From NCBI GenBank assembly GCA_050698015.1, contig JBOHAU010000019.1, positions 12,012 through 76,011 on the forward strand: a stretch of DNA of 64,000 nucleotides, read 5' to 3'. Numbering within the stretch: position 1 is the first letter of the stretch; every line of letters starts with the position of its first letter. Positions 1 through 63,148 of this stretch are shown here, in pieces. Source of the stretch: Gaiellaceae bacterium. GTDB lineage: Bacteria; Actinomycetota; Thermoleophilia; Gaiellales; Gaiellaceae. The notes below the pieces were generated by a model. It did no database searches and was not told where the DNA came from. It saw only the letters and a program-made list of their open reading frames with translations. The position numbers and the translations under genes were made by a program.

Positions 1-353
1 ACCCCGCGGGTCCGGAGGTAAGGCAGAAGCGCCGAGATCTCCTCGGTCTCGCCGCTGTTGCTCACCGCGATCACCACCTCCTCGCCGCCGATGACGCCGA
101 GGCCGCCGTGGAGGGCGTCGGTCGGATGCACAAACAGCGCTCGCGTCCCGGTGCTCGTCAGCGTCGCTGCGATCTTGCGCGCGACGATCCCGGACGTCCC
201 GGCGCCGATCGTCGCCACGGCGCCGCTGCAGCGCGCGACGAGCTCGACTGCCTCCTCGAAGTTTTTGGGATCGAGGCGGTCGGCCGCCTCGACGATCGCC
301 TGAGCCTCCTGACGTAGAAGCTCCGCGGCGGACGACGAGAGCGCGGCACTCAT
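1..353 (-). CDS. kdsD: Arabinose-5-phosphate isomerase (KdsD/KpsF type), N-terminal SIS-domain part; 3' end lies beyond the window edge
   Basis: Not in ORF track (truncated). Manual minus-strand translation from ATG at 353: MSAALSSSAAELLRQEAQAIVEAADRLDPKNFEEAVELVARCSGAVATIGAGTSGIVARKIAATLTSTGTRALFVHPTDALHGGLGVIGGEEVVIAVSNSGETEE. SIS motifs GxGxSG, ATLxSTGT, HPxxALHGxLG, SNSGET. Start forms an ATGA overlap with the stop of the upstream HAD gene. Confidence 0.85.
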   Translation of the reverse strand, partial: MSAALSSSAAELLRQEAQAIVEAADRLDPKNFEEAVELVARCSGAVATIGAGTSGIVARKIAATLTSTGTRALFVHPTDALHGGLGVIGGEEVVIAVSNSGETEEISALLPYLRTRG

Positions 354-1087
354 CGAACCCGCTCGCTCACGCCGAGCTTCTGCGGGAGTTCACTGAGGTC
401 TGCGAGAACGATGTCGGCTTCCGGCGCACGGACCGCATCGTCCTCGTAGACGCCGTTGTACCGGACGGACGTCATTCCCATGGCGGCCGCCCCGGCAACG
501 TCCGTGCGGCGCCTGTCGCCGACATGGGCGGCGCGCTCAGGCGGAACACCTCCGAGCCCCGCCAGTGCGTGCTCGAAGATTGCGCGGTGCGGCTTGTAGT
601 GGCCGACCTCGTCTGAGAAGGACATGCCGTCGAAGTACGCGGGCAGCCCGTGGCGGTCGAGTAGTTCGCGTACGACCTGCGAGGGCGTGAGGCCGATGTC
701 ACAGACGATCCCGAGGCGCACGCCGGCGCTGCGAAGCTCCTCGAGGCACTCGCGGACGCCGTCGCTGGGATGGACCGCGGCACGCCGGCCGCCCTCACTG
801 AAGCCGTCCACGAGGGCCGCCGCCGCGTCAGGGCCGAGCTGGCTGTCGAGGCGCTCGAGCATGTGGTCGACGGCCTCCTCGACCTGGAACTGCCGCCCGG
901 CCGTCCACGAGTCGACGTACTCCTGATGCGCCGCGTCGTGTGCACGCTCGAGGTCGACCTCCGGCCCCAGCGTCTCAGCCCAGACATCGAGCCGCTTCTC
1001 CTTCAGCGAACCCGGTTCCTCCCACATCAGCGTGTTCCAGAAGTCGAAGGTGACCGCCTCAACCCTGGGCTCGGAGGATTCGGTCAG
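350..1087 (-). CDS. HAD-superfamily phosphatase (subfamily IA-like, with cap domain); candidate Kdo-8-phosphate phosphatase
   Basis: C-terminal 237 aa of track ORF 350..1681(-): HAD motif I FDFWNTL, later YKPHRAIF and VGDRRRTDVAGA. The upstream 200 aa of the track ORF is an Arg/Pro-rich shadow over the real gene 1084..2553. There is no in-frame ATG/GTG/TTG between the upstream stop and motif I. CTG at 1087 gives a CTGA overlap with that stop, so the start is uncertain. Confidence 0.7.
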   Translation of the reverse strand: MTESSEPRVEAVTFDFWNTLMWEEPGSLKEKRLDVWAETLGPEVDLERAHDAAHQEYVDSWTAGRQFQVEEAVDHMLERLDSQLGPDAAAALVDGFSEGGRRAAVHPSDGVRECLEELRSAGVRLGIVCDIGLTPSQVVRELLDRHGLPAYFDGMSFSDEVGHYKPHRAIFEHALAGLGGVPPERAAHVGDRRRTDVAGAAAMGMTSVRYNGVYEDDAVRAPEADIVLADLSELPQKLGVSERVR

Positions 1088-2553
1088 AGGCCTACCCGTG
1101 CCCGCAGCTTCATCACCCGCGGATGCCGGAGAACGCCGATCTGCTGCTCGGCGACCTGGACGACCCTCCGCAGCTGCGAGGCGGCCAGTGAGAGGGCCGT
1201 TGCGACCTTCTTCTCCGGCGGCAGAGCGAGCGAGGGCTTGATGTAGCCGCGGCGGGCCAGCCGGAGCGCCTCCTGCGGATGAACGACGCCCGCCGCCCGC
1301 GCCTCGTTGAACTCGGGCTCCCACACCGTCCTGAGCGGATTCTTGTCGTTCTTCCAGGGCTGGGTCGGAACGACCGTGTAGTGGAGGAGCTTCGTCTTGG
1401 CGGGCTCGTAGTGCTCGAGGTGGTTCCACTCCGGCGGGATGCTGTCGTTGATCTCGTCCGGGTCGACCACGCAGAGCTCGAACATCAGCTGCTGGTAGTC
1501 GTAGCGACCCTCGTCGAGCCCGCCGACGATCTCCCCGACGTCCCAGTCGAGGCGCTCGCAATCGAGCATCATCACGCTCAGCTGCCGCCCGGGATGGAAC
1601 CAGGACGAGTCCTTCCACTGCTCCGGCGGCTCGTCCTGGCGTGTGCACATCACCTTCGCGCCGTCGAACGGGACCTCCCACAGCTCGGCCATGTCACCGA
1701 ACACCTGCATGTCGGCGTCGACGTAGAGCCCCCGGCCCTTGTAGCCGGCGAGCTTCGGAATGTGGAAGCGGCTGAAGGAGAAGCCCGTGCGCCCGCGGTT
1801 CTTCGGATCCTTCGGCACCGGCGTCGGCACGTCGAGCATGGGGTAGAAGCGCACGGGGCGGCTGGCGTGCTTTCGGATCGAGTACTCGAGGACGCGTGAT
1901 GCCACGATCTGCGACTCGTCGAGTCCGCAGAAGACGCGCATGGGCTCGATGAGCGGGTCGTAGTCGATCCCCCACCTGGCGACGATGTCCTCGAGCTCCC
2001 GGAACTGCGCGTCGAAGCTCGGACGTTCATTCTCCAGCGGCTGCAGGTCAGTGAACTCCCTGCCGTACTGGGTCCCGCCGTCGACGCCGAGCGTGCGCAC
2101 CTTCTTCACGCCCATCTCGCCGAGGATGTTCATCGCCGCCTCGGAGCTGAAGAAGCGAACGCCGATCTGCGGCGAGTCGCCGATCGACACGGACGTCGCG
2201 GCGTTGTACCAGACGAGCTTCTCTTGCTCGTCGAGCTCTTGGAGGACCGGTATCTCCGTGAAGTAGTCCTCGAGCCGACGCTCCGCCGGCCGGAAGTTGA
2301 TGTGCGGGCGGCGCGGCATGACGAGAAAACGGCAGTTCGAGCGGAGCGCCTCCGCGCACTTCTCGATGACGTCGACATCGATGATGTGCGCGACCTCGAC
2401 GTTCTGCTCGGCCACGACGTCGTTGAGGCCCATGAGGTTGTAGTCCTCGAGCGGGAACTCGCCTCGGCGCGAGAACGTCGGGCCCTTGCCGAGCAGCAGC
2501 CACGGCTTCGGCTCGAAGCTCGATAGCGTGATCCACTCGCGGAGTTCGATCAT
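1084..2553 (-). CDS. Two-domain glycosyltransferase: N-terminal DUF115/GT42 sialyltransferase-like domain fused to a C-terminal GT8-like (retaining) domain
   Basis: 489-aa ORF. The N-terminal part has LLLGKGPTF (compare xxGNGPSL of Cst-type/DUF115 enzymes), then MGLND and FFSSEAAMNILGEMGVKKVRTLGVDGG (compare SG..A..lG.k.i.l.G.D). The C-terminal part has GT8-like features: GLYVDADMQV (DxD), LNHLEHY and LLHYT. Confidence 0.65.
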   Translation of the reverse strand: MIELREWITLSSFEPKPWLLLGKGPTFSRRGEFPLEDYNLMGLNDVVAEQNVEVAHIIDVDVIEKCAEALRSNCRFLVMPRRPHINFRPAERRLEDYFTEIPVLQELDEQEKLVWYNAATSVSIGDSPQIGVRFFSSEAAMNILGEMGVKKVRTLGVDGGTQYGREFTDLQPLENERPSFDAQFRELEDIVARWGIDYDPLIEPMRVFCGLDESQIVASRVLEYSIRKHASRPVRFYPMLDVPTPVPKDPKNRGRTGFSFSRFHIPKLAGYKGRGLYVDADMQVFGDMAELWEVPFDGAKVMCTRQDEPPEQWKDSSWFHPGRQLSVMMLDCERLDWDVGEIVGGLDEGRYDYQQLMFELCVVDPDEINDSIPPEWNHLEHYEPAKTKLLHYTVVPTQPWKNDKNPLRTVWEPEFNEARAAGVVHPQEALRLARRGYIKPSLALPPEKKVATALSLAASQLRRVVQVAEQQIGVLRHPRVMKLRARVGL

Positions 2554-2643: not shown

Positions 2644-4122
2644 GTGATCATCGAAAGCTCTGACAGGGAACGAGACCTGCTCGGCTCGACCGAGGCAGGG
2701 GGTCTGGCGATCCGCGGCGGGATGCTTCGCCTCGGCGGGTACGCGGCGAGCGTCGCGGTCTCCCTCGTGTCCGTCCCGGTCCTCGCCCGCCATCTAGGGG
2801 TCGAGGATTTCGGCCGCTACGTCACCGTGCTCTCGCTGATCACCATCGCGTCGATGGTGTCGGACGTCGGCCTCACCCTGGTGGGACTCAGAGAGTACGC
2901 CGTGCGCGACCATGCTGGGCGCGTTCGCCTGGTTCGCAACCTGGTGGGCCTGCGGACGCTCGTCTCCTCGATCGGCGCTGTGGGGGCGACGGTGTTCGCG
3001 GCAGCAGCGGGCTACGGCGACGCGATGGTGCTCGGCACGGCGCTCGCCGGCCTCGGTCTCGTCCTCACGATGGTCCAGCAGACGTACACGATTCCGCTTC
3101 AGGGGGACCTGCGGCTCGGCCTGGTCACCGCGTTGGACCTGGCCCGCCACACGCTGGCGGTCGTCGCCATCCTCCTGCTGGCCCTAGTGGGCGCGGGCCT
3201 GGTGGCCTTTCTCTCGATACCCGTGCCCGTGGGTGTGGTCGCGCTTGCTGCGGCGGCGCTCGCGATCCACCGGCGGTTTGACGTGCGGCCGCAATTCGAT
3301 GCTCACGAGTGGCGCTACCTGGCGCGCGAGGCGCTTCCGGTCGCGATTGCCAGCGCGATCGGCTCGTTCTTCTACCGCAGCGCGATCATCGTGCTCTCGA
3401 TCATGGCCACGGCACAGGAAACGGGGTACTTCAGCGCCTCCTTCCGTATCGTCGAGGCGATCCAGATGGTGCCCGCGCTCCTGACCGCATCGGCGTTCCC
3501 GATCGTCGCTCGTGCCGCAACGAACGACCCGAAGCGCCTCGCCTACTCACTTCAGCGACTGTTCGACATGGCCGTCATCCTCGGCGCGTGGGCTGGGCTA
3601 TGTGTCGTTCTCGGCGCGGAGCCCGCGATCCGCTTTGTTGGAGGCCCGGAGTACGAGCCTGCGGTGGAGGTCCTCCGCGTCCAGGGCATCGCCCTCGCCT
3701 TGAGCTTTCTCGTAACCGTCTGGGCCACGGGCCTCTGGGCGGTCCGCGACCAGCGCGCGCTCGCCGGGGCCAACGCCGTGGGCGTCGCAAGCGCGGTGCT
3801 CCTGACCGCGGCCCTCATCCCCGGCTACGGCGCTCTCGGGGCCGCCATCGGCATGGCGATCGCTGAGACGCTCCTCGCCGCGATCTACGCGTTCGCTCTG
3901 ATGCGCGGGCGTCCGCACTTGCGTCCGGAATTGACATCGGTCCCGAAGACCCTTGCCGCCGTTGCGGTCGCGTCCGCGGCGTGGTTCGCCCCCGTCCCCG
4001 ACCTCGTGAAGGTCGCGCTCGCCACCGTACTCTTCTTCGCTGTCCTGGCAGCGCTCCGGGGCATGCCGACCGAGATCGCACACGCGCTCAGGGAGCGGCG
4101 CCTCGGACGGCGCACGGCCTAG
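2644..4122 (+). CDS. Polysaccharide/oligosaccharide flippase, MOP superfamily (Wzx-like)
   Basis: 492-aa ORF with GTG start and about 12-14 hydrophobic segments. The N-terminus (GGLAIRGGMLRLGGYAASVAVSLVSVPVLARHLGVEDFGRY) is typical of polysaccharide biosynthesis (Wzx/RfbX-type) proteins. Confidence 0.75.
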   Translation: MIIESSDRERDLLGSTEAGGLAIRGGMLRLGGYAASVAVSLVSVPVLARHLGVEDFGRYVTVLSLITIASMVSDVGLTLVGLREYAVRDHAGRVRLVRNLVGLRTLVSSIGAVGATVFAAAAGYGDAMVLGTALAGLGLVLTMVQQTYTIPLQGDLRLGLVTALDLARHTLAVVAILLLALVGAGLVAFLSIPVPVGVVALAAAALAIHRRFDVRPQFDAHEWRYLAREALPVAIASAIGSFFYRSAIIVLSIMATAQETGYFSASFRIVEAIQMVPALLTASAFPIVARAATNDPKRLAYSLQRLFDMAVILGAWAGLCVVLGAEPAIRFVGGPEYEPAVEVLRVQGIALALSFLVTVWATGLWAVRDQRALAGANAVGVASAVLLTAALIPGYGALGAAIGMAIAETLLAAIYAFALMRGRPHLRPELTSVPKTLAAVAVASAAWFAPVPDLVKVALATVLFFAVLAALRGMPTEIAHALRERRLGRRTA

Positions 4123-4129
4123 AACGCTC

Positions 4130-4969
4130 CTAGTCGGATGCGGCGATCCGCTCGGCCAACGCGTCGCGAACGGCGATCACGTCGCCAAGGAGGCGATCGA
4201 GCATGTCCGGCGTAATCATGTTCGGACCGTCACTCGGAGCCGAGTCGGGGTCCTCGTGAGCCTCGACGAAGAGCGCGTCGATCCCCACGGCAGCGGCTGC
4301 CCGCGCGAGATGTGGCACGAACTCGCGAAGGCCGCCCGAAGCCGAGCCAAGGCCTCCCGGCTGCTGCACGCTGTGGGTGACGTCGAAGACGACGGGATAA
4401 CCAAAGCCACGTAGTTGAGGAAGGCCCCTGAAGTCGACGACGAGGTCGTTGTACCCGAACGACGTCCCGCGCTCCGTCAAGAGGATGCGTTCGCAGCCGG
4501 CCGCTTCGAGCTTGCGGACGACGTTCGCCATCTCCGGTGGAGACAGGAACTGTCCCTTCTTGACGTTGACGGCCCTTCTCGTGCCAGCCGCAGCGGTGAG
4601 GAGGTCCGTTTGGCGGCTGAGGAAGGCCGGAATCTGGATGACGTCGGCGACGGCCGCGGTCGGCTCCGCCTGCCAGCTCTCGTGGATGTCCGTGATCACC
4701 GGCACCTCCAACGCCTCCTTCAAGCGCGCGAGCGTCGCGAGGCCCTCCTCCATCCCGGGCCCTCTCGCCGATTGTCCCGAAGAGCGATTTGCCTTGTCGA
4801 AGGAGGACTTGAAGACGAACCCCACCCTGTGACGATCCGCGATTGCCCGGATCGTCTCGGCGATCCGGAGCATGAAGTCCCGCCCTTCGACCACACAAGG
4901 GCCGGCGATCAGCAGCAGGGGGTGCCCGTCGCCGACGGAGACGGAGTCCGAGATTCGGACGTCGATCAT
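4130..4969 (-). CDS. kdsA: 3-deoxy-8-phosphooctulonate synthase (Kdo-8-P synthase)
   Basis: 279 aa with [65 protein letters not shown] and VFDVTHSVQ. These are KdsA signatures rather than AroG-type DAHP synthase. Start overlaps the kdsB stop (ATGA at 4966-4969). Confidence 0.9.
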
Positions 4970-5712
4970 CGAGCAGGCTCCCCAGCACGCACCTGGCGGC
5001 GCGCCCGTTCTAGATCGTCACTCGTGTTGACCTCGAGCACGGGGCGGTCGGTCTCGCAGACGCGGATGCGGATCCCGTGTTCGAGCGCTCGGAGCTGTTC
5101 CAGGCGCTCCTGCTGCTCGAGCGGCGTCGGCGGAAGCTCGGGAAATCGCAGAACGCTCTCGCGCGTGAAGGCGTAGAGGCCCAGGTGGTGGAGCGGCTTC
5201 ACCACCGACCCTGTGTCCATCGCGTCGTGCGGGATCGAACTCCTGGAGAAGTAGAGCGCATAGCCGTTCACGTCCCGCACCACCTTGACGATGTTCGGGT
5301 CCGTCCACCACGCGGGATCCGCGAGCGGACAAGCGAGGGTGGTCATCGGCGGGAGCTCACCGGCGAGGTACGGCGAGACCAGCGTGGTGAGCATCTCGGC
5401 GGTCACGAACGGCTGGTCGCCCTGCACGTTCACGACGATGTCCGCGTCGCCGTGCCGCGCCGCCACCTCGGCAACCCTGTCGGTGCCGCTGGCGTGATCG
5501 TCGCGGGTTAGCTGGACCGTCCCGCCGAAGTCGCGCACGGTCGCGGCAATGTCCTCGCTGTCGGTCGCGACGACGACCTCGTCAAAGGCCCGACACGCCG
5601 TGGCCGCCTCGTAGACCCACTGGACGAGCGGCCGGCCGCCGAGGTCGGCGAGTGGCTTCCCGGGCAAACGGGAGGCTCCGTAACGGACGGGAACGACGGC
5701 GAGAATCTTCAC
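4966..5712 (-). CDS. kdsB: 3-deoxy-manno-octulosonate cytidylyltransferase (CMP-Kdo synthetase)
   Basis: Track ORF 4966..5832 trimmed to the GTG at 5712, giving [35 protein letters not shown]. Also [19 protein letters not shown] and YFSRSSIP, typical of KdsB. Confidence 0.85.
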
Positions 5713-5748
5713 GGTGTTAGCGTGCCCGTCCTTGCGCGAGACCGCTCG

Positions 5749-6486
5749 ATGAATGACTCGACTGTGACGTTCACCAAGTACGAAACGCGCGGAGCGTACC
5801 ACTGGGCCGAGCTCGCCCACCGCTTCCCGCACAGGTACTCGTCACGTCTCCACGCACAGTACGACTGGTTCGTCGACGAAGCGCGTAAGCGTCGGACGTC
5901 ATTGATCGTCGATGTTGGTTGCGGAGACGCCGCGCTGACGTACTTGCTGGAGCAGGCGACCGGTGCCCGCGTCGTCGGGATCGAGCCCGAGCCTCTGGGA
6001 GTGGAGCTGGCACGCGAAGCGCTCGCCCGGGTGGATTCCTCGGTCGAGGTCCTTCAGGGGAGGGGCGAAGAGCTGCCCTTCGCCGACGGCGAAGCGTCTC
6101 TCGTTGTGATGTCGGAGGTCATTGAACACGCGCGCAAAGCGGATCCCCTCATCGACGAGGCAGCGAGGGTCGTCTCGGCGACCGGGGCGGTCCTTCTCTC
6201 GACGCCGCAATGGCAGAGCGATGACCTTCGGGAGCTCCATTTCAAGGAGTACACCGCCGACGAGCTGCGCGCTCTCTGCGCTGGGGCGTTCGAAGATGTG
6301 GAGGTCCTCGTTGCCGAGCCGCCAGGGCTGTACGACCGCTACATGTCGAACCCCTTTTGGCGCGTGGGGGTGGACGTCGCAAGCCTCCTAGGACGAAATC
6401 CCTTCACCAAGCGGCTTCGCGCTTCGTCCGGGCACGCCGGCTGGCGGGAGCTCTTTGCGATCGCCTCCCGCCCAAAGGTCGCCTAG
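5749..6486 (+). CDS. Class I SAM-dependent methyltransferase
   Basis: Motif I IVDVGCGDAALTYLL and post-I VVGIEPE, then LVVMSEVIEH. ATG at 5749 preferred; GTG at 5722 is the alternative. Divergent from kdsB. Confidence 0.75.
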   Translation: MNDSTVTFTKYETRGAYHWAELAHRFPHRYSSRLHAQYDWFVDEARKRRTSLIVDVGCGDAALTYLLEQATGARVVGIEPEPLGVELAREALARVDSSVEVLQGRGEELPFADGEASLVVMSEVIEHARKADPLIDEAARVVSATGAVLLSTPQWQSDDLRELHFKEYTADELRALCAGAFEDVEVLVAEPPGLYDRYMSNPFWRVGVDVASLLGRNPFTKRLRASSGHAGWRELFAIASRPKVA

Positions 6487-9610: not shown

Positions 9611-10610
9611 GGGCGGTCGCCGCCAGTTCGCGCGAGCGGCGCGAGAGCACCGGCACGACGCTCCTCCCCCTGGCCAGCGCGCGGCGGATCTCGCGCGAGG
9701 AGACGACGCGCCGGTCCTGGACGGCACGCCGCTCGCGCAGGATCTCGGGGAGACCGCGGAGTGCGTCCCGCTTGGCGCGGAACGCCACCCCGGCGCGGCG
9801 CGTGATCGCGAATGCAGCGAGGGTGGCCAGATTCACGAGCAGGTGCTGGGGGAGGTAGAGCCAGAACAGTGCCGATGGCATGTCCTTGACGTACGTCCAG
9901 ACGATGTTGCGGTGGGTGTGGTAGAGCATGAAGTCGCTGTCCCGGCATGCGGCGGACGAGCCGACGTGGCGCGCGACCGCGCCCGGCACGTACATCGAAC
10001 GGTGGCCGACGAGGCGGAGCCTGAAGCCGAGATCGACGTCTTCGTAGTAACAGAAGAACCGCTCGTCGAAGCCGCCGACGGCGAGGAAAGCGTCGCGCCG
10101 ATAGAGGGCAGCGGCTGCGCTCGCCGAAAACACCTCTCGGGGCGCTGCCGCCGAAGAAGACGACTCGCCCCGACCGCCCTGCCAGGCGACGCCGCTGACG
10201 TGCATCACGTCGCCGGCGGCATCGAGACGCCCGGGATCCGAGTCCATCACGATCCGGCTTGAGAACGACGCGGATCCGGGAGCGGCCTCTGCGGCACGCA
10301 GGAGCTCCTCGAGCCACCGCGCCTCCGGGAACGCGTCCGGGTTGAGGAGCGCGAGCCATTCGGAGTCGCCCGCCTCGCGCGCCGCGAGGTTGTTCGCCGC
10401 CGCGAAGCCCACGTTCGCGTCGAGCCGGATTACCTCGACGCTTGGGAACTCGGCCTCAACGCCGTCAGCAGACCCGTCGGTGCTCCCGTTGTCGACGACG
10501 AGGATCCGGTCTGGCGCTCGCGTCTGCTCCGCCAGCGCGGCGAGCGAGCGGCGGAGGAAGCGGCCCGAGTTCGCGTTCACGATCGCCACGGCAACGCGAG
10601 GTCGCTCCAC
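9570..10610 (-). CDS. GT2 family glycosyltransferase
   Basis: 346 aa, GTG start, with VAVAIVNANSGRFL, ILVVDNGSTDGS, NVGFAAANN, LNPDAFP and CYYEDVDLGFR. The 3' end overlaps the convergent gene 8600..9610 by 41 nt. Confidence 0.8.
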   Translation of the reverse strand: MERPRVAVAIVNANSGRFLRRSLAALAEQTRAPDRILVVDNGSTDGSADGVEAEFPSVEVIRLDANVGFAAANNLAAREAGDSEWLALLNPDAFPEARWLEELLRAAEAAPGSASFSSRIVMDSDPGRLDAAGDVMHVSGVAWQGGRGESSSSAAAPREVFSASAAAALYRRDAFLAVGGFDERFFCYYEDVDLGFRLRLVGHRSMYVPGAVARHVGSSAACRDSDFMLYHTHRNIVWTYVKDMPSALFWLYLPQHLLVNLATLAAFAITRRAGVAFRAKRDALRGLPEILRERRAVQDRRVVSSREIRRALARGRSVVPVLSRRSRELAATAPTEPAGPPPSRPA

Positions 10611-10654
10611 GCGGCGACTCTAGCCGGGCTCGGCGCCGGCCCCCGGCTCCTACA

Positions 10655-12838
10655 ATGGCCGCCGTGCTCCGGGACGCCGCTCACAGCGCGCACGGCCGAG
10701 CGCGGAGCGGATTCCGGGTCGCCGGCCTGAGCGTCCCAGCGGCGCTCACCGCTGCCGGAGTCCTGCTCCTGACGGTCGTCGTGCGTTACGTGCTGGCGCT
10801 CGACCAGACGGCGCCGTGGCTGATGGGCGACGAGTTGCGCTACGCGGAGATGGCGAAGAGTTTTCTCGAGGAGGGCAGGCTCCTCTTCCGCGAGCAGTTC
10901 ACGTCGTTCGCGAGCGCCTATCCGGCGTTGATTTCGCCCGGCTGGGCTGCGTCGGACATCGAGACCGCGTACGAGTTCGCGAAAGCCGTGAACGTCGTGC
11001 TCATGACCTGCTCGGCGGTTGTCGTCTTCTTCTGGACGCGCAGGCTGGGGACGACGGCGTTCGCCCTCGCGGCGGCCGGTCTCGTCCTCCTGATGCCGAC
11101 GTTCACGTACACGGGCATGCTCATGACCGAGAACGCCGCGGTCCCAGCGTTCCTGCTCGCGGCGTTCCTGATGGCCGTCGCGCTAGAACGCGGAAGCGTC
11201 GCCCTGCAGCTGGCCGCGATCGGGGCGATCGCGCTGGCGGCGCTGCTACGTGTGCAGGTTGCGACGCTCGCGCTCGTCTTCCCGGCGGCGATCGTCCTCG
11301 ACGCCTGGCTCGCGCGCTGCGCCGGCACCCGGCCCGTTCGGGAGTCGCTCCGGCGGTTCGTCCCGGCCGTCGTCGCCCTCGCGTCGGGGGCGCTGCTGTA
11401 CCTCGTCTACATCGTGCTGTCCGGCGGATCCCTCACTAGTGGCCTAGGTGCGTACGACGCCGTCGCGGGAGCCGACTACGACGTTTTGGACGTCGTACGC
11501 TGGGCGGTCTGGCACGTCGGGGAACTAGTCCTGTCCGTCGGCGTTCTGCCGGCGCTCGCGTTGGTCGCGCTGGTCGCGTCCGCGGCGCGGCAAGGAGGGC
11601 TCGCGTCGCCGGCCGAGCGTGCATTCGTCGCTGTCGGAGCCATCGCGACGGTCGCCTTCGTCCTCCAGGCTGCAGCGTTCGCGTCGCGCTTCTCGGGGCG
11701 CATCGAGGAGCGGTACATGGTGTACACCTCGCCACTCCTCCTCATGGCTCTGGTCGTCTGGGTAGCGCGGGAACGAGAGCGAGCGCGGCTCGCGGCCGTG
11801 GTCGGCTGCGCCGCCTGCGCGCTCTTTGCGTTGACGATCCCGTTCGAGCGCCTCTTCAACGTCGGCCTCTTCGGAGACACGTTCGGACTGATCCCGTTCA
11901 TGCGGCTCTCGACGTTCCTCGACGCCGGAGTGGAGGACCTGCGCATCGTCGTGGCCGCGGGCCTCGCGGCCGCCGTTGCGCTCTTTCTCGCCCTCCCCTG
12001 GAAGGTCGCCCGCGTCGCACTCCCGAGCGTCGTCGCCGGCTTTCTTCTCCTTTCCGGCTACACGGTCCACGGCACGATCCGCGACCAGTCGCAGGCAACG
12101 AGGGCGGCGCAGGGCGCCGCAGATCCGAGCTGGGTCGACCACGCCGTCGGCGACGACGCAAGGGTCGGGTTCGTCTACGGCCCGAACGTGAGCTCGAACC
12201 CGCACCTCCTCTGGCAGGCAGAGTTTTGGAACCGGAGCATTGACAACGTCTACGTACACGGCACCGATCCCGACCCCTCCTACTCGAACGACGAGATCCG
12301 GATCGACGCGCATGGTCGGCTAGTGCCGAAGGAGGCGGGAGACGCGCAGCTGGAGGAGCCGTACCTGGTCGCCGACCCGGCGCTCGGGATCGTCGGCGAG
12401 GTCGTTGCCCAGCCTGGGCCTATCGCGCTGATCCAGCTCGATCCTCCCGCTCGCGTCGAGCAGACGCTCGACGGTGTGTACGGCGATGGATGGTCGGGGC
12501 CCAACGCTGCGCTGAACCGGTACGCCCCGCTGAGTGGTGGCGCTCGGCGGATCAAGGTGGACGTCTCGCGGGCCGGCTGGGACGGCCCAGATCTCCCTGG
12601 CCGCGTCGAGATCCGCGTCGGCCCCCTGCGGATGATGGGAAGCGATCCGTCCCTTGCCCGCGTAACCGCCGCGCGGCAATGGACTGTCCACTCGAAGACC
12701 GCCCGGAGTTTCGTGCTGCCGTTGCCTCCCGCCCCATTCCGCGTCGAGGTGAGCGTCACACCGACCTTCTCCCCCGCCCAGTTCGGCCACGGCGATGCCC
12801 GGCAGCTCGGCGCCCAGCTGGGGTTCTCGCCCGCATGA
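10655..12838 (+). CDS. GT-C fold glycosyltransferase (ArnT/PMT, GT39-like) with C-terminal extracytoplasmic domain
   Basis: Track ORF 10442 trimmed to the ATG at 10655, because the upstream 71 aa is an Arg-rich shadow over 9570..10610. First-loop motif LMGDELRYAEMAKSFLEEGRLLF, at least 10 TM segments, then a roughly 270-aa soluble C-terminal domain. Confidence 0.7.
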   Translation: MAAVLRDAAHSAHGRARSGFRVAGLSVPAALTAAGVLLLTVVVRYVLALDQTAPWLMGDELRYAEMAKSFLEEGRLLFREQFTSFASAYPALISPGWAASDIETAYEFAKAVNVVLMTCSAVVVFFWTRRLGTTAFALAAAGLVLLMPTFTYTGMLMTENAAVPAFLLAAFLMAVALERGSVALQLAAIGAIALAALLRVQVATLALVFPAAIVLDAWLARCAGTRPVRESLRRFVPAVVALASGALLYLVYIVLSGGSLTSGLGAYDAVAGADYDVLDVVRWAVWHVGELVLSVGVLPALALVALVASAARQGGLASPAERAFVAVGAIATVAFVLQAAAFASRFSGRIEERYMVYTSPLLLMALVVWVARERERARLAAVVGCAACALFALTIPFERLFNVGLFGDTFGLIPFMRLSTFLDAGVEDLRIVVAAGLAAAVALFLALPWKVARVALPSVVAGFLLLSGYTVHGTIRDQSQATRAAQGAADPSWVDHAVGDDARVGFVYGPNVSSNPHLLWQAEFWNRSIDNVYVHGTDPDPSYSNDEIRIDAHGRLVPKEAGDAQLEEPYLVADPALGIVGEVVAQPGPIALIQLDPPARVEQTLDGVYGDGWSGPNAALNRYAPLSGGARRIKVDVSRAGWDGPDLPGRVEIRVGPLRMMGSDPSLARVTAARQWTVHSKTARSFVLPLPPAPFRVEVSVTPTFSPAQFGHGDARQLGAQLGFSPA

Positions 12839-13746
12839 GCACGGACGAGGTCTCCGAGCTCTGGGGGCGAAAGGCCCGCGAGAAGGTCGAGGACGAGGAC
12901 TGGAGCCGCTTCTACTGGCAATCGAATCCGCTCACGCTCCGTCACATCAACCGCCTACTGACCGGCGACGAGGCGGAAGGCTGGCTGACGTTCACCAAGC
13001 GGCGCTTCGTTCCTGAAACCCTCGAGCGAGGTCTGAGCCTCGGATGTGGCCATGGCCCGGTCGAGCGGGACGCAATGGCTCTAGGCATCTGCAGGACCTT
13101 CGATGCCTTCGACATCTCGGAGGAAGCGGTCGAGGTCGCGCGCAGCGAAGCCGAACGGGCGGGCCTCGGCGACCGCATCGAGTATCGGCGCGCCGACCTC
13201 AACACGGTCGAGCTCGGCCGTGATTGCTACGACATCGCGTTCGCGATCCAGGTGCTGCACCACATCGACGCACTAGAGCATCTCCTCGATCAGGTCGCGG
13301 CCTCACTGCGTCCGGAGGGCCTGTTCGTCGTCAACGAGTACGTCGGCCCGCCGCGGTTTCAGCTCCTCGGCAAGACGCGCGACGTCATGAACCGTGTCCT
13401 CGACGTGGTGCCCGAGGAGTACAAGACCAATCCCCGTGACGGGAGCGTTCGCGGGCCGATGGAGCGCGCTGCTCCCGAAGACATCGTGGCAGTCGATCCC
13501 TCGGAGGCGATCCGCTCCGACGAGATCCCCGAGCTGCTCCGCTCGCGCTTCGACGTCCTCTACGAAGCCGACTTCGGCGGCACTGTCCTCCAGTTCCTGC
13601 TCGCGGACATCGTCGCTAACTTCGACGAGGCGGACGCGAGAGACGTCGCGCTCCTCGACCTCATCTGCCTGATCGAGGAACTGCTGATCGCCGAGCGCGT
13701 CCTGCCGAGCGACTTCGCGTACTACGTGCTCAGGCCGCGGCGCTGA
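12835..13746 (+). CDS. Class I SAM-dependent methyltransferase
   Basis: ATG at 12835 forms an ATGA overlap with the stop of the GT-C gene. Motifs: GLSLGCGHG, AFDISEEAV, AFAIQVLHHI and LRPEGLFVVNEY. Confidence 0.75.
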   Translation: MSTDEVSELWGRKAREKVEDEDWSRFYWQSNPLTLRHINRLLTGDEAEGWLTFTKRRFVPETLERGLSLGCGHGPVERDAMALGICRTFDAFDISEEAVEVARSEAERAGLGDRIEYRRADLNTVELGRDCYDIAFAIQVLHHIDALEHLLDQVAASLRPEGLFVVNEYVGPPRFQLLGKTRDVMNRVLDVVPEEYKTNPRDGSVRGPMERAAPEDIVAVDPSEAIRSDEIPELLRSRFDVLYEADFGGTVLQFLLADIVANFDEADARDVALLDLICLIEELLIAERVLPSDFAYYVLRPRR

Positions 13747-15679: not shown

Positions 15680-16784
15680 GACGTCTGAAGGCCGCCCGAA
15701 GACTCCGAATCGGAGCGGTGTAGCGGAACGTTCGGGAGCCGTGGATCCTTGCTAGCTGAGCTTCGAGCTCGCCGACGCGCCGCTCGAACTCCTCCATGAC
15801 GCCCTTCCGCCACTCGACCTCCTCTTTGAGGCGCGAGATCTCCCCCTGTGCGTCCTCGAGGCGGTCAGCGAAGGCCAGCCGCTCCTTGATGAGATGCCGC
15901 GCCTGCGCCACGTGAGCCTTCCGCAGAAGATCGAGCTCCGACCGCTCGCGATCGAGCTCTGCCTGAAGCGCCGCGACTTCGCTGCGGGCGTGCTCGCCGG
16001 CCTGCTGGATCTCCGCCTCCGTTTCACGGAAACGGTTGCGCAGCTCGCCGAGCTGCGACGCGGCCTCTGACGGCGCCGCGCGGACGACGAACTGGTACGT
16101 CGTCAGCTCTGGGTCGGATCCGAGCCAGGCGCCCACCGCGTCGGGAATGTCCGGAGGGGGCGTGATCTCGGCGTCCTGCGGATCGACCCGCCGGCGGCGC
16201 CACGTCGAGACGACGAACCCCGCAGATTCGAAAAGGTCGACGATGCTCGCCCGCGTGAAGAATCGCAGGTGCGTGTCGTCGAGGAGACCGAGGTCCCGGT
16301 AGCGGAACTCACCGCCGAGGAGCGCCAGCCGGACGCTGATGTGTGCGACGTTTGGAATCGAGGCGACGACCGAGCCGCCATCGGCAACGAACGGCCGAAC
16401 GCGCCGGAGGATGGCGGTGGGGTCGCGGAGATGCTCGAGCACGTCGGCGAAGAGCACGGCGTCGAAGCGTTCCTCGCCGAGGTGCTCGCCGAGGTCGAGC
16501 GTCTCGGCGTCGCCGACAATGACGCGGTCGCAGTACGCGCTCGCCTGGGCGGCCGCCTCGGGATCTATCTCGATTCCAGTCACGCGGGCGCCTCGCCTTT
16601 CGGTGAGAACACGGCTCATGTACCCCGTCGCGCAACCGAATTCGAGGACTGACGAATGCTCGGGGACGAACTCGACGACGAGATTGTGCGTCGATCCGGG
16701 GGAGTCGTCGTAGCGTGTGTACTTAGACTCCGGGCCGTCCGTCTCGGCCGCCGCGGCAGCACGCTTGTCATCCGTCGTCGCCAC
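15657..16784 (-). CDS. SAM-dependent methyltransferase with roughly 120-aa C-terminal coiled coil and basic tail (WbdD-like chain-terminator candidate)
   Basis: Track ORF 15657..17219 trimmed to the GTG at 16784 (ATG at 16865 is the alternative). MT motifs VLEFGCATGYMS, VTGIEIDPEA and VLFADVLEHL. The C-terminus is heptad-like and Glu/Arg/Leu-rich (LGELRNRFRETEAEIQQAGEHARSEVAALQAELDRERSELDLLRKAH...EEVEWRKGVMEEFERRVGELEAQLARI), then SRTFRYTAPIRSLRAAFRRR. Confidence 0.7.
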   Translation of the reverse strand: MATTDDKRAAAAAETDGPESKYTRYDDSPGSTHNLVVEFVPEHSSVLEFGCATGYMSRVLTERRGARVTGIEIDPEAAAQASAYCDRVIVGDAETLDLGEHLGEERFDAVLFADVLEHLRDPTAILRRVRPFVADGGSVVASIPNVAHISVRLALLGGEFRYRDLGLLDDTHLRFFTRASIVDLFESAGFVVSTWRRRRVDPQDAEITPPPDIPDAVGAWLGSDPELTTYQFVVRAAPSEAASQLGELRNRFRETEAEIQQAGEHARSEVAALQAELDRERSELDLLRKAHVAQARHLIKERLAFADRLEDAQGEISRLKEEVEWRKGVMEEFERRVGELEAQLARIHGSRTFRYTAPIRSLRAAFRRRDAARSP

Positions 16785-17874: not shown

Positions 17875-17878
17875 AGCG

Positions 17879-19075: not shown

Positions 19076-19077
19076 AG

Positions 19078-19896: not shown

Positions 19897-19900
19897 CGCC

Positions 19901-26408: not shown

Positions 26409-26414
26409 AGGCCG

Positions 26415-27182: not shown

Positions 27183-27195
27183 GCGGACTCGCGGA

Positions 27196-30582: not shown

Positions 30583-30595
30583 AGACTGGCCCGCC

Positions 30596-63038: not shown

Positions 63039-63148
63039 GGTTCCTCCTCTCAAGCAGTCGACATTTGCTGCGTCAGTAGCCCGCACCACCTCCTTTCGCG
63101 AGGGGGCGCCGAGCGCCGGAGCTCAGAACCGCAGAGAGATCGAACAGT

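What the first reader, a model, noticed from the sequence alone, without database searches (positions are those of the whole stretch)
1084..2553. Fusion of a sialyltransferase-like (DUF115/GT42-type) domain with a GT8-like domain: candidate novel Kdo transferase
The N-terminal roughly 215 aa carry LLLGKGPTF...MGLND...FFSSEAAMNILGEMGVKKVRTLGVDGG. By eye this mirrors the GNGPSL ... SG..A..lG.k.i.l.G.D pattern of CMP-ulosonic-acid-dependent transferases (Cst-type GT42, Maf/DUF115). The C-terminal half looks GT8-like (YVDADMQV DxD motif). The gene heads an operon with the HAD phosphatase and kdsD. No WaaA (GT30) or KpsC/KpsS-type Kdo transferase is visible. This protein is therefore the best candidate to consume CMP-Kdo and then add a hexose, an architecture I cannot match to a characterised enzyme.
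Basis: partly seen in the sequence, partly recalled or inferred. Interest (0 to 1): 0.7.

Follow-up and report, generated by a model that had tools for sequence, protein, structure and literature searches.

The report
Sialyltransferase-like plus GT8 fusion, probable Kdo transferase
This gene encodes an uncharacterised two-domain sugar-adding enzyme, and its first domain is probably a new kind of transferase for the acidic sugar Kdo, here in a Gram-positive-type soil bacterium that should not need Kdo for an outer membrane.

Summary
Window 1084..2553 (-) is a real 489-aa gene from a Gaiellaceae MAG. It has three parts: an unannotated N-domain (aa 1-203), a GT8 domain with an intact DxD (aa 204-420), and a basic helical tail.

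It is followed on the same strand by a HAD hydrolase gene and kdsD. kdsB and kdsA lie 1.6 kb away. No GT30 or KpsC/S-type domain was found in any of the 51 window ORFs scanned.

The N-domain alone folds confidently (pLDDT 97). Its only credible PDB matches are Cst-II (GT42) and archaeal MptE (the DUF115 prototype), both marginal (TM 0.46-0.48). Eight of 44 stand-alone relatives hit Pfam MptE-like weakly.

Comparative genomics gives the strongest support. In Actinomycetota, 13 of 15 loci carrying this fusion have kdsA within 10 kb, against 1 of 65 loci in other phyla. In nine of them the order is kdsB-kdsA-fusion, co-directional and contiguous.

Most likely this is a bifunctional glycosyltransferase. 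The N-domain would transfer Kdo from CMP-Kdo and the GT8 domain would add an alpha-hexose. The activity is inferred, not shown.

The N-domain family has no characterised member. A similar small protein in the E. coli K15 capsule locus was predicted earlier, on the same kind of evidence, to be an alpha-Kdo transferase. I rate this a new variant of a known kind.

The parts
1084..2553 (-). Whole gene: 489-aa two-domain glycosyltransferase (N-domain, GT8 domain, basic tail)
   Evidence: ORF. GC3 0.92. Full-length homologues in 171 species genomes. AF2 full-length model has pLDDT 86 and pTM 0.79.
1945..2553 (-). N-domain (aa 1-203): single seven-stranded alpha/beta domain, Cst-II/MptE-like; proposed CMP-Kdo-dependent Kdo transferase module
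   Evidence: No Pfam, NCBIfam or PDB sequence hit. AF2 pLDDT 96.9. Top Foldseek PDB hits are Cst-II 2x61 and MptE 8sd5. BFVD matches include MptE-like/DUF115-annotated viral proteins. PF01973 is hit by 8 of 44 relatives.
2479..2490 (-). G22-K23-G24-P25 glycine-rich loop after strand 1 (counterpart of Cst-II G8-N9-G10-P11)
   Evidence: Conserved in 97-99% of 139 family members. Aligned to GNGP of GT42 by hhalign.
2140..2151 (-). F135-S136-S137-E138 motif; S136 aligns with Cst-II S132
   Evidence: F135 and S136 are 96% conserved. hhalign.
2074..2091 (-). L155-G-V-D158-G-G160 motif followed by Y163 (counterpart of Cst-II S-G-I-D154-F-Y ... Y162)
   Evidence: G156, D158, G159, G160 and Y163 are 94-100% conserved. 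Aligned by hhalign in three independent runs.
1294..1944 (-). GT8 (GT-A fold) domain, aa 204-420; presumed Mn2+/UDP-hexose-dependent retaining transferase
   Evidence: PF01501 at 28.5 bits against GA 24.3. Foldseek hits WbbM, LgtC, glycogenin, UGGT and LARGE1 at E 1e-8 to 1e-6, prob 1.0.
1711..1719 (-). D279-A-D281 (DxD) metal/nucleotide-sugar motif of the GT8 domain
   Evidence: D279 and D281 are invariant in 42 homologues. Coordinates checked.
1354..1383 (-). H391-Y-T-V-V-P-T-Q-P-W400, the C-terminal GT8 His...PW motif
   Evidence: H391, Y392, T393, V394, P396, Q398, P399 and W400 are invariant. Its role as the third metal ligand is inferred from GT8 knowledge, not tested.
1084..1293 (-). 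C-terminal tail (aa 421-489): basic helices, 13 K/R against 3 D/E; probably a membrane-association or oligomerisation segment
   Evidence: Helices 449-471 and 473-487 with pLDDT 52-65. Charge count. Length and sequence vary among homologues.
350..1087 (-). HAD-IA hydrolase, candidate Kdo-8-P phosphatase (non-KdsC type); start codon uncertain
   Evidence: PF00702 and PF13419. No NCBIfam equivalog reaches its cut-off. Co-occurs with kds genes in 9 loci. Start-codon problem.
1..353 (-). 5' part of kdsD/kpsF-type arabinose-5-phosphate isomerase (SIS domain); runs off the window edge
   Evidence: Translation of 3..353. It finds 44-80% identical segments beside kdsA/kdsB in other loci. A family scan was not run on this fragment.
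2644..4122 (+). Divergently transcribed Wzx/MOP-type flippase
   Evidence: PF01943 and PF13440. A Wzx homologue is also near the fusion and kds genes in L001, L002, L003, L005, L008 and L086.
4130..4969 (-). kdsA (Kdo-8-phosphate synthase)
   Evidence: NF003543 at 390 bits (cut-off 242) and TIGR01362 at 375.8 bits (cut-off 314).
4966..5832 (-). kdsB (CMP-Kdo synthetase); the true start is probably downstream of 5832
   Evidence: TIGR00466 at 197.7 bits (cut-off 155.2) and NF003952 at 286.6 bits. The match begins at aa 42.

Best explanation
The gene encodes a peripheral-membrane, bifunctional glycosyltransferase that acts in assembly of a Kdo-containing cell-envelope polysaccharide.

Step 1 (shown by annotation). 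KdsD, KdsA, a HAD phosphatase and KdsB, all encoded within 6 kb, make CMP-beta-Kdo.

Step 2 (inferred). The N-domain is a roughly 200-aa single Rossmann-like domain of the Cst-II/Maf/MptE-like superfamily. It binds CMP-Kdo through its GKGP loop, its FS(S/A)E motif and its LG-D-GG...Y motif, and transfers Kdo to the growing lipid-linked glycan. If it works like inverting GT42 enzymes, the product is an alpha-Kdo linkage.

Step 3 (inferred from family membership). The GT8 domain, with its DxD and HxxxxPxxPW motifs, uses Mn2+ and a UDP-hexose to add an alpha-linked hexose next to the Kdo.

Step 4 (inferred). The basic C-terminal helices hold the enzyme at the membrane. The product is exported by the adjacent Wzx flippase here, and by Wzm/Wzt ABC transporters in many other phyla.

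The order of the two transfers is unknown. So is whether the enzyme adds one disaccharide or polymerises a Kdo-hexose repeat.
For: Fold.
- The N-domain model is confident (pLDDT 96.9, pTM 0.92).
- Its top two PDB matches are Cst-II (E 2.3e-3, prob 0.99, TM 0.48) and MptE (E 4.1e-3, prob 0.98, TM 0.46). Every other hit has prob 0.28 or lower.
- In BFVD there are 16 matches at E <= 1e-3 with TM up to 0.69-0.72. Three of them, and five of the top 30, are annotated MptE-like or DUF115.
- Eight of 44 stand-alone relatives hit PF01973, best E 4.3e-5.
- Some bona fide GT42 proteins also carry PF01973 hits, which links the two families.
- hhalign against a GT42 profile is collinear over 173 columns (P 0.001-0.008). 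It pairs GKGP/GNGP, N44/N31, S136/S132, D158/D154 and Y163/Y162.

Context.
- A complete CMP-Kdo pathway lies in the same locus.
- No GT30 or KpsC/S domain was found in the 64-kb window.
- Of 80 genome loci carrying the fusion, kdsA lies within 10 kb in 13 of 15 Actinomycetota and 1 of 65 others (Fisher p = 4.5e-12).
- In nine loci, including cultured Nocardioides astragali, kdsB-kdsA-fusion are co-directional with gaps under 70 nt, in five of them with kdsD directly upstream.
- No other glycosyltransferase cluster accompanies the kds genes in more than 8 of those 14 loci.

Modularity.
- The N-domain also occurs alone, and fused to GT2, GT4 or methyltransferase modules in large glycan-assembly proteins.
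- It occurs split from, but adjacent to, the same GT8 subfamily in phage-like contigs.

Precedent.
- Maf (DUF115) enzymes and the Lst sialyltransferase can transfer Kdo from CMP-Kdo (bioRxiv 10.1101/2020.06.03.131540; PMC11339370; PMC8092323).
- A Maf/Cst-II-like protein was predicted to be the alpha-Kdo transferase of E. coli K15 (PMC7387560).
- A 212-aa protein in the K15 locus of E. coli 536, probably that protein, hits PF01973 at 7.8e-7.

GT8 half. It passes the Pfam threshold, matches LgtC, glycogenin and WbbM structurally, and has an invariant DxD and His motif.
Against: - No biochemical data exist for any member of the N-domain family.
- The query's own N-domain hits no Pfam, NCBIfam or PDB sequence model.
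- Structural similarity to Cst-II and MptE is marginal (TM below 0.5). Profile-profile probability is only 5-10%.
- The Cst-II catalytic base His188 falls in an alignment gap, so the catalytic machinery is unidentified.
- MptE itself is a pyrophosphokinase, not a glycosyltransferase, so the fold does not dictate the chemistry.
- In 65 of 80 loci (diderm phyla) and in the phage-like contigs no kds genes are nearby, so the donor there is unconstrained by context.
- The kds linkage was measured only on loci chosen because they carry the fusion. The reciprocal search starting from KdsA was inconclusive: only 2 of 80 loci carried the N-domain, and most hits looked like diderm-type KdsA.
- The rest of this genome could hold another Kdo transferase.
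Confidence: 0.6

Rival explanations
1. The N-domain is an MptE-like nucleotide-dependent kinase or pyrophosphokinase. It would phosphorylate a sugar of the glycan, perhaps for a methyl-phosphate-type cap made together with the neighbouring methyltransferases. It would not be a glycosyltransferase, and Kdo would be added by some other, unrecognised protein.
For: MptE (8sd5) matches about as well as Cst-II. PF01973 is named after a pyrophosphokinase. Methyltransferases are the most persistent neighbours and fusion partners of the N-domain: a DUF1698-like methyltransferase is present in 29 of 80 loci and typically lies immediately adjacent. Kinase-plus-methyltransferase terminators are known in ABC-transporter-dependent O-antigen systems (PMC11231755). 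The window has a Wzt with a C-terminal carbohydrate-binding module.
Against: This does not explain the tight kdsB-kdsA-fusion operons in monoderm Actinomycetota. Those loci would be left with a CMP-Kdo pathway and no candidate transferase. Most bacterial PF01973-type proteins that have been studied (Maf) are glycosyltransferases. The residues that align are those recalled to contact the CMP-sugar phosphate and carboxylate in Cst-II (recalled from memory, not tested).
Confidence: 0.12
2. The N-domain is a glycosyltransferase, but Kdo is not its general donor. It might use another CMP-ulosonic acid or a different nucleotide sugar. The kds linkage would be a lineage-specific feature of Actinomycetota, or would reflect use of Kdo by another enzyme.
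For: No kds genes lie near the fusion in 65 of 80 loci or in the phage-like contigs. The commonest neighbours are GT2s, methyltransferases, RmlB-like dehydratases and Wzm/Wzt. Maf, GT42 and Lst enzymes are donor-promiscuous (PMC11339370; PMC8092323).
Against: Diderm hosts make CMP-Kdo anyway for LPS, so the absence of local kds genes says little (inference). No NeuB-type or other ulosonic-acid synthase cluster emerged among the conserved neighbours. N-domain signature residues are near-invariant across all contexts, which suggests one conserved donor chemistry.
Confidence: 0.13
3. The N-domain is non-catalytic. It would be an acceptor-binding, regulatory or oligomerisation module serving the GT8 domain, and the protein would be a monofunctional hexosyltransferase.
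For: The N-domain and this GT8 subfamily form an obligate pair, fused or adjacent, even in phage-like contigs. The Cst-II catalytic His is not conserved.
Against: About 20 polar or glycine residues are conserved in 90% or more of sequences at loop positions typical of a nucleotide-binding active site. The domain also occurs without GT8, fused to GT2, GT4 or methyltransferase modules like other catalytic modules. This reading does not explain the kds operon linkage.
Confidence: 0.1
4. The GT8 domain itself is the Kdo transferase.
For: It is the only recognised glycosyltransferase domain in the protein by Pfam.
Against: Characterised GT8 enzymes use UDP-sugars with a DxD-bound metal, whereas CMP-sugar transferases are generally metal-independent (established knowledge). 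DxD and the His motif are intact here.
Confidence: 0.03

Closest known systems
Cst-II / Cst-I alpha-2,3/2,8-sialyltransferases of Campylobacter (CAZy GT42, Pfam PF06002)
   Same: Both are a single Rossmann-like domain. Cst-II is the best PDB structural match. The alignment is collinear, with a shared G-x-G-P loop, an Asn after strand 2, a (T/F)S motif, and G-x-D followed by Tyr. GT42 enzymes use a CMP-activated 2-keto-3-deoxy acid sugar donor, which is the chemistry proposed here.
   Different: There is no PF06002 hit. TM is only 0.48 and hhalign probability is 5-8%. The N-domain is about 60 residues shorter (about 200 aa against 260 aa). Cst-II His188 has no aligned equivalent. Instead the family conserves H56, D59 and H84. 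The proposed donor is Kdo, not Neu5Ac. The domain is fused to GT8.
Maf flagellin nonulosonic-acid glycosyltransferases and archaeal MptE (Pfam PF01973, MptE-like, formerly DUF115)
   Same: MptE (8sd5) is the second-best PDB match. Eight of 44 family relatives hit PF01973. Viral structural matches carry MptE-like or DUF115 annotation. Maf enzymes have been shown to transfer Kdo from CMP-Kdo (10.1101/2020.06.03.131540; PMC11339370).
   Different: The query and most relatives score below any threshold. Maf proteins are large three-domain protein O-glycosyltransferases acting on flagellin. MptE is a pyrophosphokinase. Here the context is polysaccharide assembly.
E. coli K15 capsule 'ORF4', a predicted alpha-Kdo transferase (PMC7387560); probably WP_000694922.1 in E. 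coli 536
   Same: It is a small (212-aa) single-domain protein in a Kdo-containing polysaccharide locus, with the same motif order (ANGHS ... GMN ... LLGVD). It hits PF01973 at 7.8e-7 and the GT42 profile at P = 7e-5. It was predicted to be a Kdo transferase on the same kind of evidence.
   Different: It relates only weakly to the N-domain profile (hhalign P 0.003, hmmsearch E 0.006 in a 7-sequence database). It is stand-alone, not fused to GT8. It is itself only a prediction. That the 536 protein equals ORF4 of the paper is my inference.
Established CMP-Kdo-dependent transferase families: GT30 (WaaA), GT73 (WaaZ; from my own knowledge), GT99 (WbbB), GT107 (KpsC/KpsS), GT137 (K. pneumoniae O4 ORF7), GT140 (KrkA)
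   Same: They share the proposed donor and the role in envelope glycan assembly. Like WbbB and KrkA, this protein would combine a Kdo module with a second glycosyltransferase module in one polypeptide (PMC11231755; PMC12887879).
   Different: There is no sequence-model hit (PF04413 or PF05159). None of their structures is among the top 50 Foldseek matches. GT30, GT99, GT107 and GT140 are two-lobed GT-B-derived modules, and GT137 has two beta/alpha/beta domains with methyltransferase-like topology, against one 200-aa domain here.
WbbM (K. pneumoniae O2a; DUF4422/GT111 + GT8) and other GT8 enzymes (LgtC, glycogenin)
   Same: WbbM is the best full-length Foldseek hit (6u4b, E 1.4e-8). It is likewise a two-module protein with a C-terminal GT8 that acts in polysaccharide synthesis.
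   Different: The N-terminal module of WbbM is a GT-A-type galactofuranosyltransferase unrelated to the N-domain here. The full-length superposition is poor (rmsd 14.5 Å), so only the GT8 halves correspond.

Membership tests
CAZy GT8 / Pfam PF01501 (C-terminal domain) | Sequence match to the family model above the curated threshold | tested here: met
   PF01501 at 28.5 bits against gathering 24.3, E 1.5e-6, aa 254-307. Most homologues carry the same precomputed annotation.
CAZy GT8 / Pfam PF01501 (C-terminal domain) | GT-A fold superimposable on solved GT8 structures | tested here: met
   Foldseek hits WbbM, LgtC, 3tzt, glycogenin, UGGT and LARGE1 at E 1e-8 to 1e-6, prob 1.0, TM(target) 0.47-0.63.
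CAZy GT8 / Pfam PF01501 (C-terminal domain) | DxD metal/nucleotide motif and C-terminal His | tested here: met
   D279, D281 and H391 are invariant in 42 homologues. The metal-ligand role was not verified structurally.
CAZy GT8 / Pfam PF01501 (C-terminal domain) | Retaining transfer from a UDP-hexose | not testable with these tools
   Needs an enzyme assay.
CAZy GT42 / Pfam PF06002 (N-domain) | Sequence match to the family model | tested here: not met
   No PF06002 hit at E <= 10. hhalign against a GT42 profile gives prob 5-8%, P 0.001-0.008.
CAZy GT42 / Pfam PF06002 (N-domain) | Cst-II-type single-domain fold | tested here: inconclusive
   Cst-II is the top PDB hit with prob 0.99, but TM is 0.48/0.41 and rmsd 7.7 Å.
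CAZy GT42 / Pfam PF06002 (N-domain) | Catalytic base His188 and the CMP-sugar-contacting residues (identities recalled from memory of the Cst-II literature) | tested here: inconclusive
   N31, S132, D154 and Y162 have aligned, conserved counterparts (N44, S136, D158, Y163). His188 falls in a gap. No structural superposition was available.
Pfam PF01973 MptE-like (ex-DUF115; Maf, MptE) | Sequence match to the family model above the gathering threshold | tested here: not met
   The query has no hit. Eight of 44 relatives hit weakly, best E 4.3e-5.
Pfam PF01973 MptE-like (ex-DUF115; Maf, MptE) | Fold similarity to a solved member | tested here: inconclusive
   MptE 8sd5_C has prob 0.98 and TM 0.46/0.44. 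Viral models annotated MptE-like or DUF115 match at TM 0.52-0.61.
GT30 (WaaA) and GT107 (KpsC/KpsS) Kdo transferases | Pfam PF04413 / PF05159 match, or structural match | tested here: not met
   No such Pfam hit for this protein or for any scanned ORF of the window. None appears in the top 50 Foldseek hits.
GT99 (WbbB), GT137 (O4 ORF7), GT140 (KrkA) Kdo transferases | Two-lobed Rossmann architecture of about 300-400 aa with an Asp nucleophile (GT99, GT140) or methyltransferase-like topology (GT137) | tested here: not met
   The N-domain is a single 200-aa domain. WbbB and KrkA structures are absent from the top 50 Foldseek hits.
Functional class: CMP-Kdo-dependent glycosyltransferase | Genomic linkage to CMP-Kdo synthesis where Kdo is not needed for LPS | tested here: met
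   kdsA lies within 10 kb in 13 of 15 Actinomycetota loci against 1 of 65 others (p = 4.5e-12). There are nine contiguous kdsB-kdsA-fusion arrangements.
Functional class: CMP-Kdo-dependent glycosyltransferase | Kdo transfer demonstrated in vitro or in vivo | not testable with these tools
   No characterised member was found in the literature searches.

The most novel reading that the evidence does not exclude
The roughly 200-aa N-domain founds a new glycosyltransferase family. It would be a minimal, single-domain, Cst-II/Maf-related (probably inverting) alpha-Kdo transferase, a further CMP-Kdo-dependent family beside GT30, GT73, GT99, GT107, GT137 and GT140. Its kdsD-kdsB-kdsA-linked form would show that diverse monoderm Actinomycetota (Gaiellales, Thermoleophilia, Acidimicrobiia, Nocardioides) build Kdo-containing cell-wall polysaccharides. 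The same module, paired with its GT8 partner, would also be carried by phages and giant viruses.
Probability: 0.45. Interest if true: 0.75.

Novelty: new variant of a known kind. Interest (0 to 1): 0.62.

Why it matters
Kdo is usually treated as a hallmark of Gram-negative LPS and capsules. Its transferases are few, and new families are still being founded (GT137 in 2024, GT140 in 2026).

A minimal sialyltransferase-fold Kdo transferase would add a new enzyme family. The family has 541 detectable relatives among 50%-identity cluster representatives, and the fusion occurs in 171 species genomes. It would also give an experimentally tractable entry point: Nocardioides astragali is cultured.

It would explain why monoderm Actinomycetota keep a complete CMP-Kdo pathway. 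It would support the untested alpha-Kdo transferase prediction for E. coli K15-type capsules. It would offer a compact module for glyco-engineering.

The fixed pairing with a GT8 partner, fused in cells and split in phage-like contigs, is a clean Rosetta-stone case that predicts a Kdo-hexose disaccharide unit.

Tried and rejected
1. Direct sequence annotation of the N-domain with Pfam, NCBIfam and PDB phmmer/hmmsearch returned nothing meaningful. The only hits were nitrile hydratase and succinyl-CoA synthetase noise.
2. Foldseek with the full-length model was dominated by the GT8 half. The WbbM 446-column alignment (rmsd 14.5 Å) says nothing about the N-domain.
3. The search for related loci with the divergent N-domain alignment failed because there was no conserved 7-10-column stretch.
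4. A reciprocal test starting from KdsA in metagenomes was inconclusive. KdsA is too conserved, so most of the 80 loci were diderm-type, and only L086 and L100 carried the N-domain.
5. The isolate-phage collection and IMG/VR gave no hit with a stand-alone N-domain protein. The phage association therefore rests on gene content of three metagenomic contigs and on BFVD structural matches.
6. GT137 membership was considered and rejected on the published description (two beta/alpha/beta domains, TPR and coiled coil), without a sequence comparison.
7. The idea that Kdo here caps an ABC-transporter-exported chain, as in WbbB or O4 ORF7, could neither be supported nor excluded. This window's fusion lies next to a Wzx flippase, and the Wzm/Wzt system 17 kb away has its own WbdD-like methyltransferase.
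8. Literature searches for Kdo in Actinobacterial wall polymers found nothing relevant.

Full report
**1. Observation**

The finding's coordinates enclose one ORF, 1084..2553 on the minus strand, 489 aa with an ATG start. Third-position GC is 0.92 against 0.40 at second positions, the signature of a real gene in this 68-70% GC window. The protein is identical to an NCBI entry named 'MAG: hypothetical protein [Gaiellaceae bacterium]' and has about 1900 detectable homologues. Most are 485-500 aa and align end to end.

The only family hit for the whole protein is GT8 (PF01501), at 28.5 bits against a gathering score of 24.3, on aa 254-307 around the DxD. The first 200 residues hit nothing in Pfam, NCBIfam or PDB sequences.

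**2. Surroundings**

The fusion, a HAD-IA hydrolase gene and a SIS-domain arabinose-5-phosphate isomerase gene (kdsD/kpsF type, cut by the window edge) follow one another on the minus strand. The HAD stop and the kdsD start overlap as ATGA. A Wzx-type flippase is transcribed divergently 90 bp upstream.

kdsB and kdsA lie at 4130..5832, and both score above their NCBIfam cut-offs. Beyond them come methyltransferases, three GT2 genes and a large membrane protein. Further on there is a second glycan system: Wzm, Wzt with a C-terminal carbohydrate-binding module, a WbdD-like methyltransferase with a coiled coil, GT4s, an aminotransferase and an epimerase. This extends to about 30.7 kb.

I scanned 51 ORFs across the whole window. 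None has a GT30 (PF04413) or KpsC/KpsS (PF05159) domain. The N-domain occurs only once in the window.

**3. What the N-domain is**

A full-length AlphaFold model (pLDDT 86) shows three parts: an N-terminal alpha/beta domain (aa 1-203), a GT-A domain, and low-confidence basic helices at the C-terminus. Foldseek with that model finds only GT8 structures, namely WbbM, LgtC, glycogenin, UGGT and LARGE1.

I therefore modelled aa 1-205 alone, using 43 stand-alone relatives as the alignment. The result was pLDDT 96.9 and pTM 0.92.

- Against the PDB, the two best matches are the GT42 sialyltransferase Cst-II (2x61_B; E 2.3e-3, prob 0.99, TM 0.48/0.41) and M. jannaschii HPPK/MptE (8sd5_C; E 4.1e-3, prob 0.98, TM 0.46/0.44). 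Everything below has prob 0.28 or lower.
- Against predicted viral structures the matches are better (TM up to 0.69/0.72). They include proteins annotated 'MptE-like' and 'DUF115'.
- At sequence level the query is silent, but 8 of 44 stand-alone relatives hit PF01973 (MptE-like, formerly DUF115), best E 4.3e-5.
- Some genuine GT42 proteins also carry PF01973 hits, which links the two families.
- I rebuilt the Cst-II sequence from memory and verified it against PDB chains. hhalign of a 139-sequence N-domain profile against a GT42 profile is weak (P 0.001-0.008, probability 5-8%) but collinear. It pairs GKGP with GNGP, N44 with N31, S136 with S132, D158 with D154 and Y163 with Y162. The Cst-II catalytic His188 falls in a gap.

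The family's own signature is G22-K-G-P, N44, H56, D59, P80, P83-H84, Y116, F135-S136, G156-x-D158-G-G, Y163 and Q183. All but H56 (85%) are at least 91% conserved.

My reading is that this is a previously unmodelled, divergent branch of the Cst-II/Maf/MptE-like superfamily. It is not a member of GT42 or PF01973 by their own criteria.

**4. Distribution and architecture**

A full HMMER scan of 1.84 billion cluster representatives with the N-domain found 541 relatives. The domain occurs in three settings:

- fused to this GT8 subfamily, which is the commonest arrangement;
- alone, as proteins of about 200 aa;
- inside large multi-module proteins together with GT2, GT4 and methyltransferase domains.

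That is how catalytic modules of glycan-assembly enzymes behave.

Three stand-alone members were traced to contigs that look like phage genomes. These carry runs of small co-directional ORFs and hits to Kyano_Gp96, DUF2460, DNA methyltransferases and dATP/dGTP pyrophosphohydrolase. In each contig the N-domain gene lies next to a separate homologue of the fusion's GT8 half (31-36% identity to aa 205-440), and in two of them methyltransferases follow directly. The N-domain and this GT8 are therefore a conserved functional pair, whether fused or split.

**5. The Kdo link**

A scan of one genome per GTDB species found the fusion in 171 species. I analysed the best 80 loci with 10-kb flanks.

- tblastn with this window's KdsA, KdsB and KdsD shows kdsA within 10 kb in 13 of 15 Actinomycetota loci. 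The two exceptions are truncated on the upstream side.
- Only 1 of 65 loci from other phyla has it (Fisher p = 4.5e-12).
- In nine loci, kdsB-kdsA-fusion are co-directional with gaps under 70 nt. In five of them (L014, L017, L040, L042, L100) kdsD lies directly upstream as well. These loci come from Gaiellaceae, Thermoleophilaceae, Acidimicrobiia and the cultured Nocardioides astragali.
- No other glycosyltransferase cluster accompanies the kds genes in more than 8 of those 14 loci.

Actinomycetota are monoderm and make no LPS (established knowledge, not tested for this genome). A dedicated CMP-Kdo pathway there needs a dedicated consumer, and the fusion is the only consistent candidate.

In diderm phyla (Planctomycetota, Pseudomonadota, Acidobacteriota, Gemmatimonadota) no kds genes are nearby. 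That is expected if CMP-Kdo comes from the LPS pathway. In those phyla the recurrent neighbours are Wzm/Wzt, GT2s, methyltransferases and RmlB-like dehydratases.

A caveat applies. The loci were selected because they carry the fusion. The reciprocal search from KdsA was uninformative, because KdsA is too conserved to restrict the search to monoderms.

**6. Which domain uses Kdo**

The GT8 half keeps the DxD and the C-terminal His...PW motif invariant. It matches metal- and UDP-sugar-dependent retaining enzymes. The N-domain has the fold of CMP-ulosonic-acid transferases.

Enzymes of that fold and chemistry are known to accept CMP-Kdo. Clostridium botulinum Maf transfers Kdo (bioRxiv 10.1101/2020.06.03.131540; PMC11339370), and gonococcal Lst transfers Kdo (PMC8092323).

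The E. coli K15 capsule paper predicted its 'ORF4' to be an alpha-Kdo transferase because Phyre2 matched it to Maf and Cst-II (PMC7387560). I retrieved the K15 locus of E. coli 536. One 212-aa hypothetical protein there (WP_000694922.1) has the same motif order. It hits PF01973 at 7.8e-7 and the GT42 profile at hhalign P = 7e-5, but relates only faintly to the N-domain profile. So the concept has a predicted precedent, but this family is a different and more divergent branch.

**7. Comparison with known Kdo transferases**

The known families are GT30 (WaaA), GT73 (WaaZ; from my own knowledge), GT99 (WbbB), GT107 (KpsC/S), GT137 (K. pneumoniae O4 ORF7) and GT140 (KrkA). All are two-lobed modules of 300 aa or more (PMC11231755, PMC12887879). 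None is matched by sequence, and none appears in the top 50 structural hits. Like WbbB and KrkA, this protein would join a Kdo module to a second glycosyltransferase module in one chain.

**8. Mechanism proposed**

1. CMP-Kdo is made locally by KdsD, KdsA, the HAD phosphatase and KdsB. The phosphatase role is inferred, because this HAD is type IA and not KdsC-like.
2. The N-domain transfers Kdo to a lipid-linked acceptor. The linkage would be alpha if the mechanism is inverting, as in GT42.
3. The GT8 domain adds an alpha-hexose.
4. The basic C-terminal helices (13 K/R against 3 D/E) tether the enzyme to the membrane.
5. Export is by Wzx here and by Wzm/Wzt elsewhere.

Step 1 rests on family assignments above curated cut-offs. 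Steps 2-5 are inferences. I put about 0.6 on this model.

The rivals are:
- an MptE-like kinase role (0.12), suggested by the persistent methyltransferase neighbours;
- a glycosyltransferase with a different donor (0.13);
- a non-catalytic partner domain (0.10);
- GT8 itself using CMP-Kdo (0.03).

**9. Verdict**

The protein is uncharacterised and its N-domain lacks any family model. The fold class, the donor chemistry and even a similar prediction (K15) are already known, so I class it as a new variant of a known kind. If biochemistry confirms it, it would be a new CAZy family. The finding is directly testable in a cultured organism.

Noticed in passing
window 1027-1324 (- strand), start of the HAD gene: The conserved N-terminal HAD motif (VTFDFWNTL, holding the nucleophile Asp) begins about 8 codons after the fusion's stop codon. 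The only canonical in-frame starts are ATG 1027, which would delete the motif, and GTG 1324, which lies 240 nt inside the fusion gene. A CTG at 1087-1085 overlaps the fusion's TGA. This suggests a non-canonical start or translational coupling.
   Followed up: partly
window 12490-30700: A second polysaccharide system of the ABC-transporter type. It comprises Wzm (19078..19896), Wzt with a Wzt_C carbohydrate-binding module (19673..21139), a WbdD-like methyltransferase with a coiled-coil segment (15657..17219), GT4 (16768..18096), a GT2+GT4 fusion (13730..15679), further methyltransferases, a DegT aminotransferase (24367..25809), an epimerase (25419..26408) and more GT2/GT4 genes. Its relation to the Kdo/Wzx sub-cluster is unclear.
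   Followed up: partly
window 10442..12838 (+) and 21768..24386 (+): Two large ORFs (798 and 872 aa) with gene-like codon bias but no Pfam or NCBIfam hit. The first is hydrophobic over much of its length and could be a Wzy-like polymerase or a GT-C enzyme.
   Followed up: no
L081 9369-11202; L082 9307-11896; L085 9704-11592: Stand-alone N-domain genes lie in phage-like metagenomic contigs (GC 65-67%), immediately next to a separate homologue of the fusion's GT8 half. In L081 and L082 SAM methyltransferase genes follow directly. This is a split version of the fusion carried by viruses. BFVD also holds many viral structural matches, including a Pyramimonas orientalis virus protein (TM 0.69/0.72) and a Mimiviridae sp. 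ChoanoV1 protein annotated DUF115. No match was found in isolate-phage genomes or IMG/VR with one query.
   Followed up: partly
L167 25414-26052 (-) = E. coli 536 NC_008253 3190414-3191052: The K15 capsule locus holds a 212-aa 'hypothetical protein' (WP_000694922.1). It hits PF01973 (E 7.8e-7, below gathering) and a GT42 profile (hhalign P 7e-5). It is probably the 'ORF4' predicted to be an alpha-Kdo transferase in PMC7387560, and it is still annotated as hypothetical in RefSeq.
   Followed up: partly
e.g. L075 4153-5277; L042, L014, L040, L005, L008: An unannotated family of about 350 aa ('cluster 5') is present in 24 of 80 loci and usually lies within 1 kb of the fusion. It has no Pfam hit. 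It is a possible further glycan-assembly component.
   Followed up: partly
P0165 (1401 aa), P0175 (834 aa), P0207 (934 aa): Giant multi-module proteins combine a methyltransferase, the N-domain and GT2, with a further GT4/GT1-type module in P0165 and P0207. They are reminiscent of single-protein polymerase-terminator enzymes such as WbbB.
   Followed up: no
window 62082..63089 (-): A Kelch-repeat beta-propeller protein with a secondary hit to the NanM (N-acetylneuraminate epimerase) family. It is far from the glycan locus and probably unrelated.
   Followed up: no
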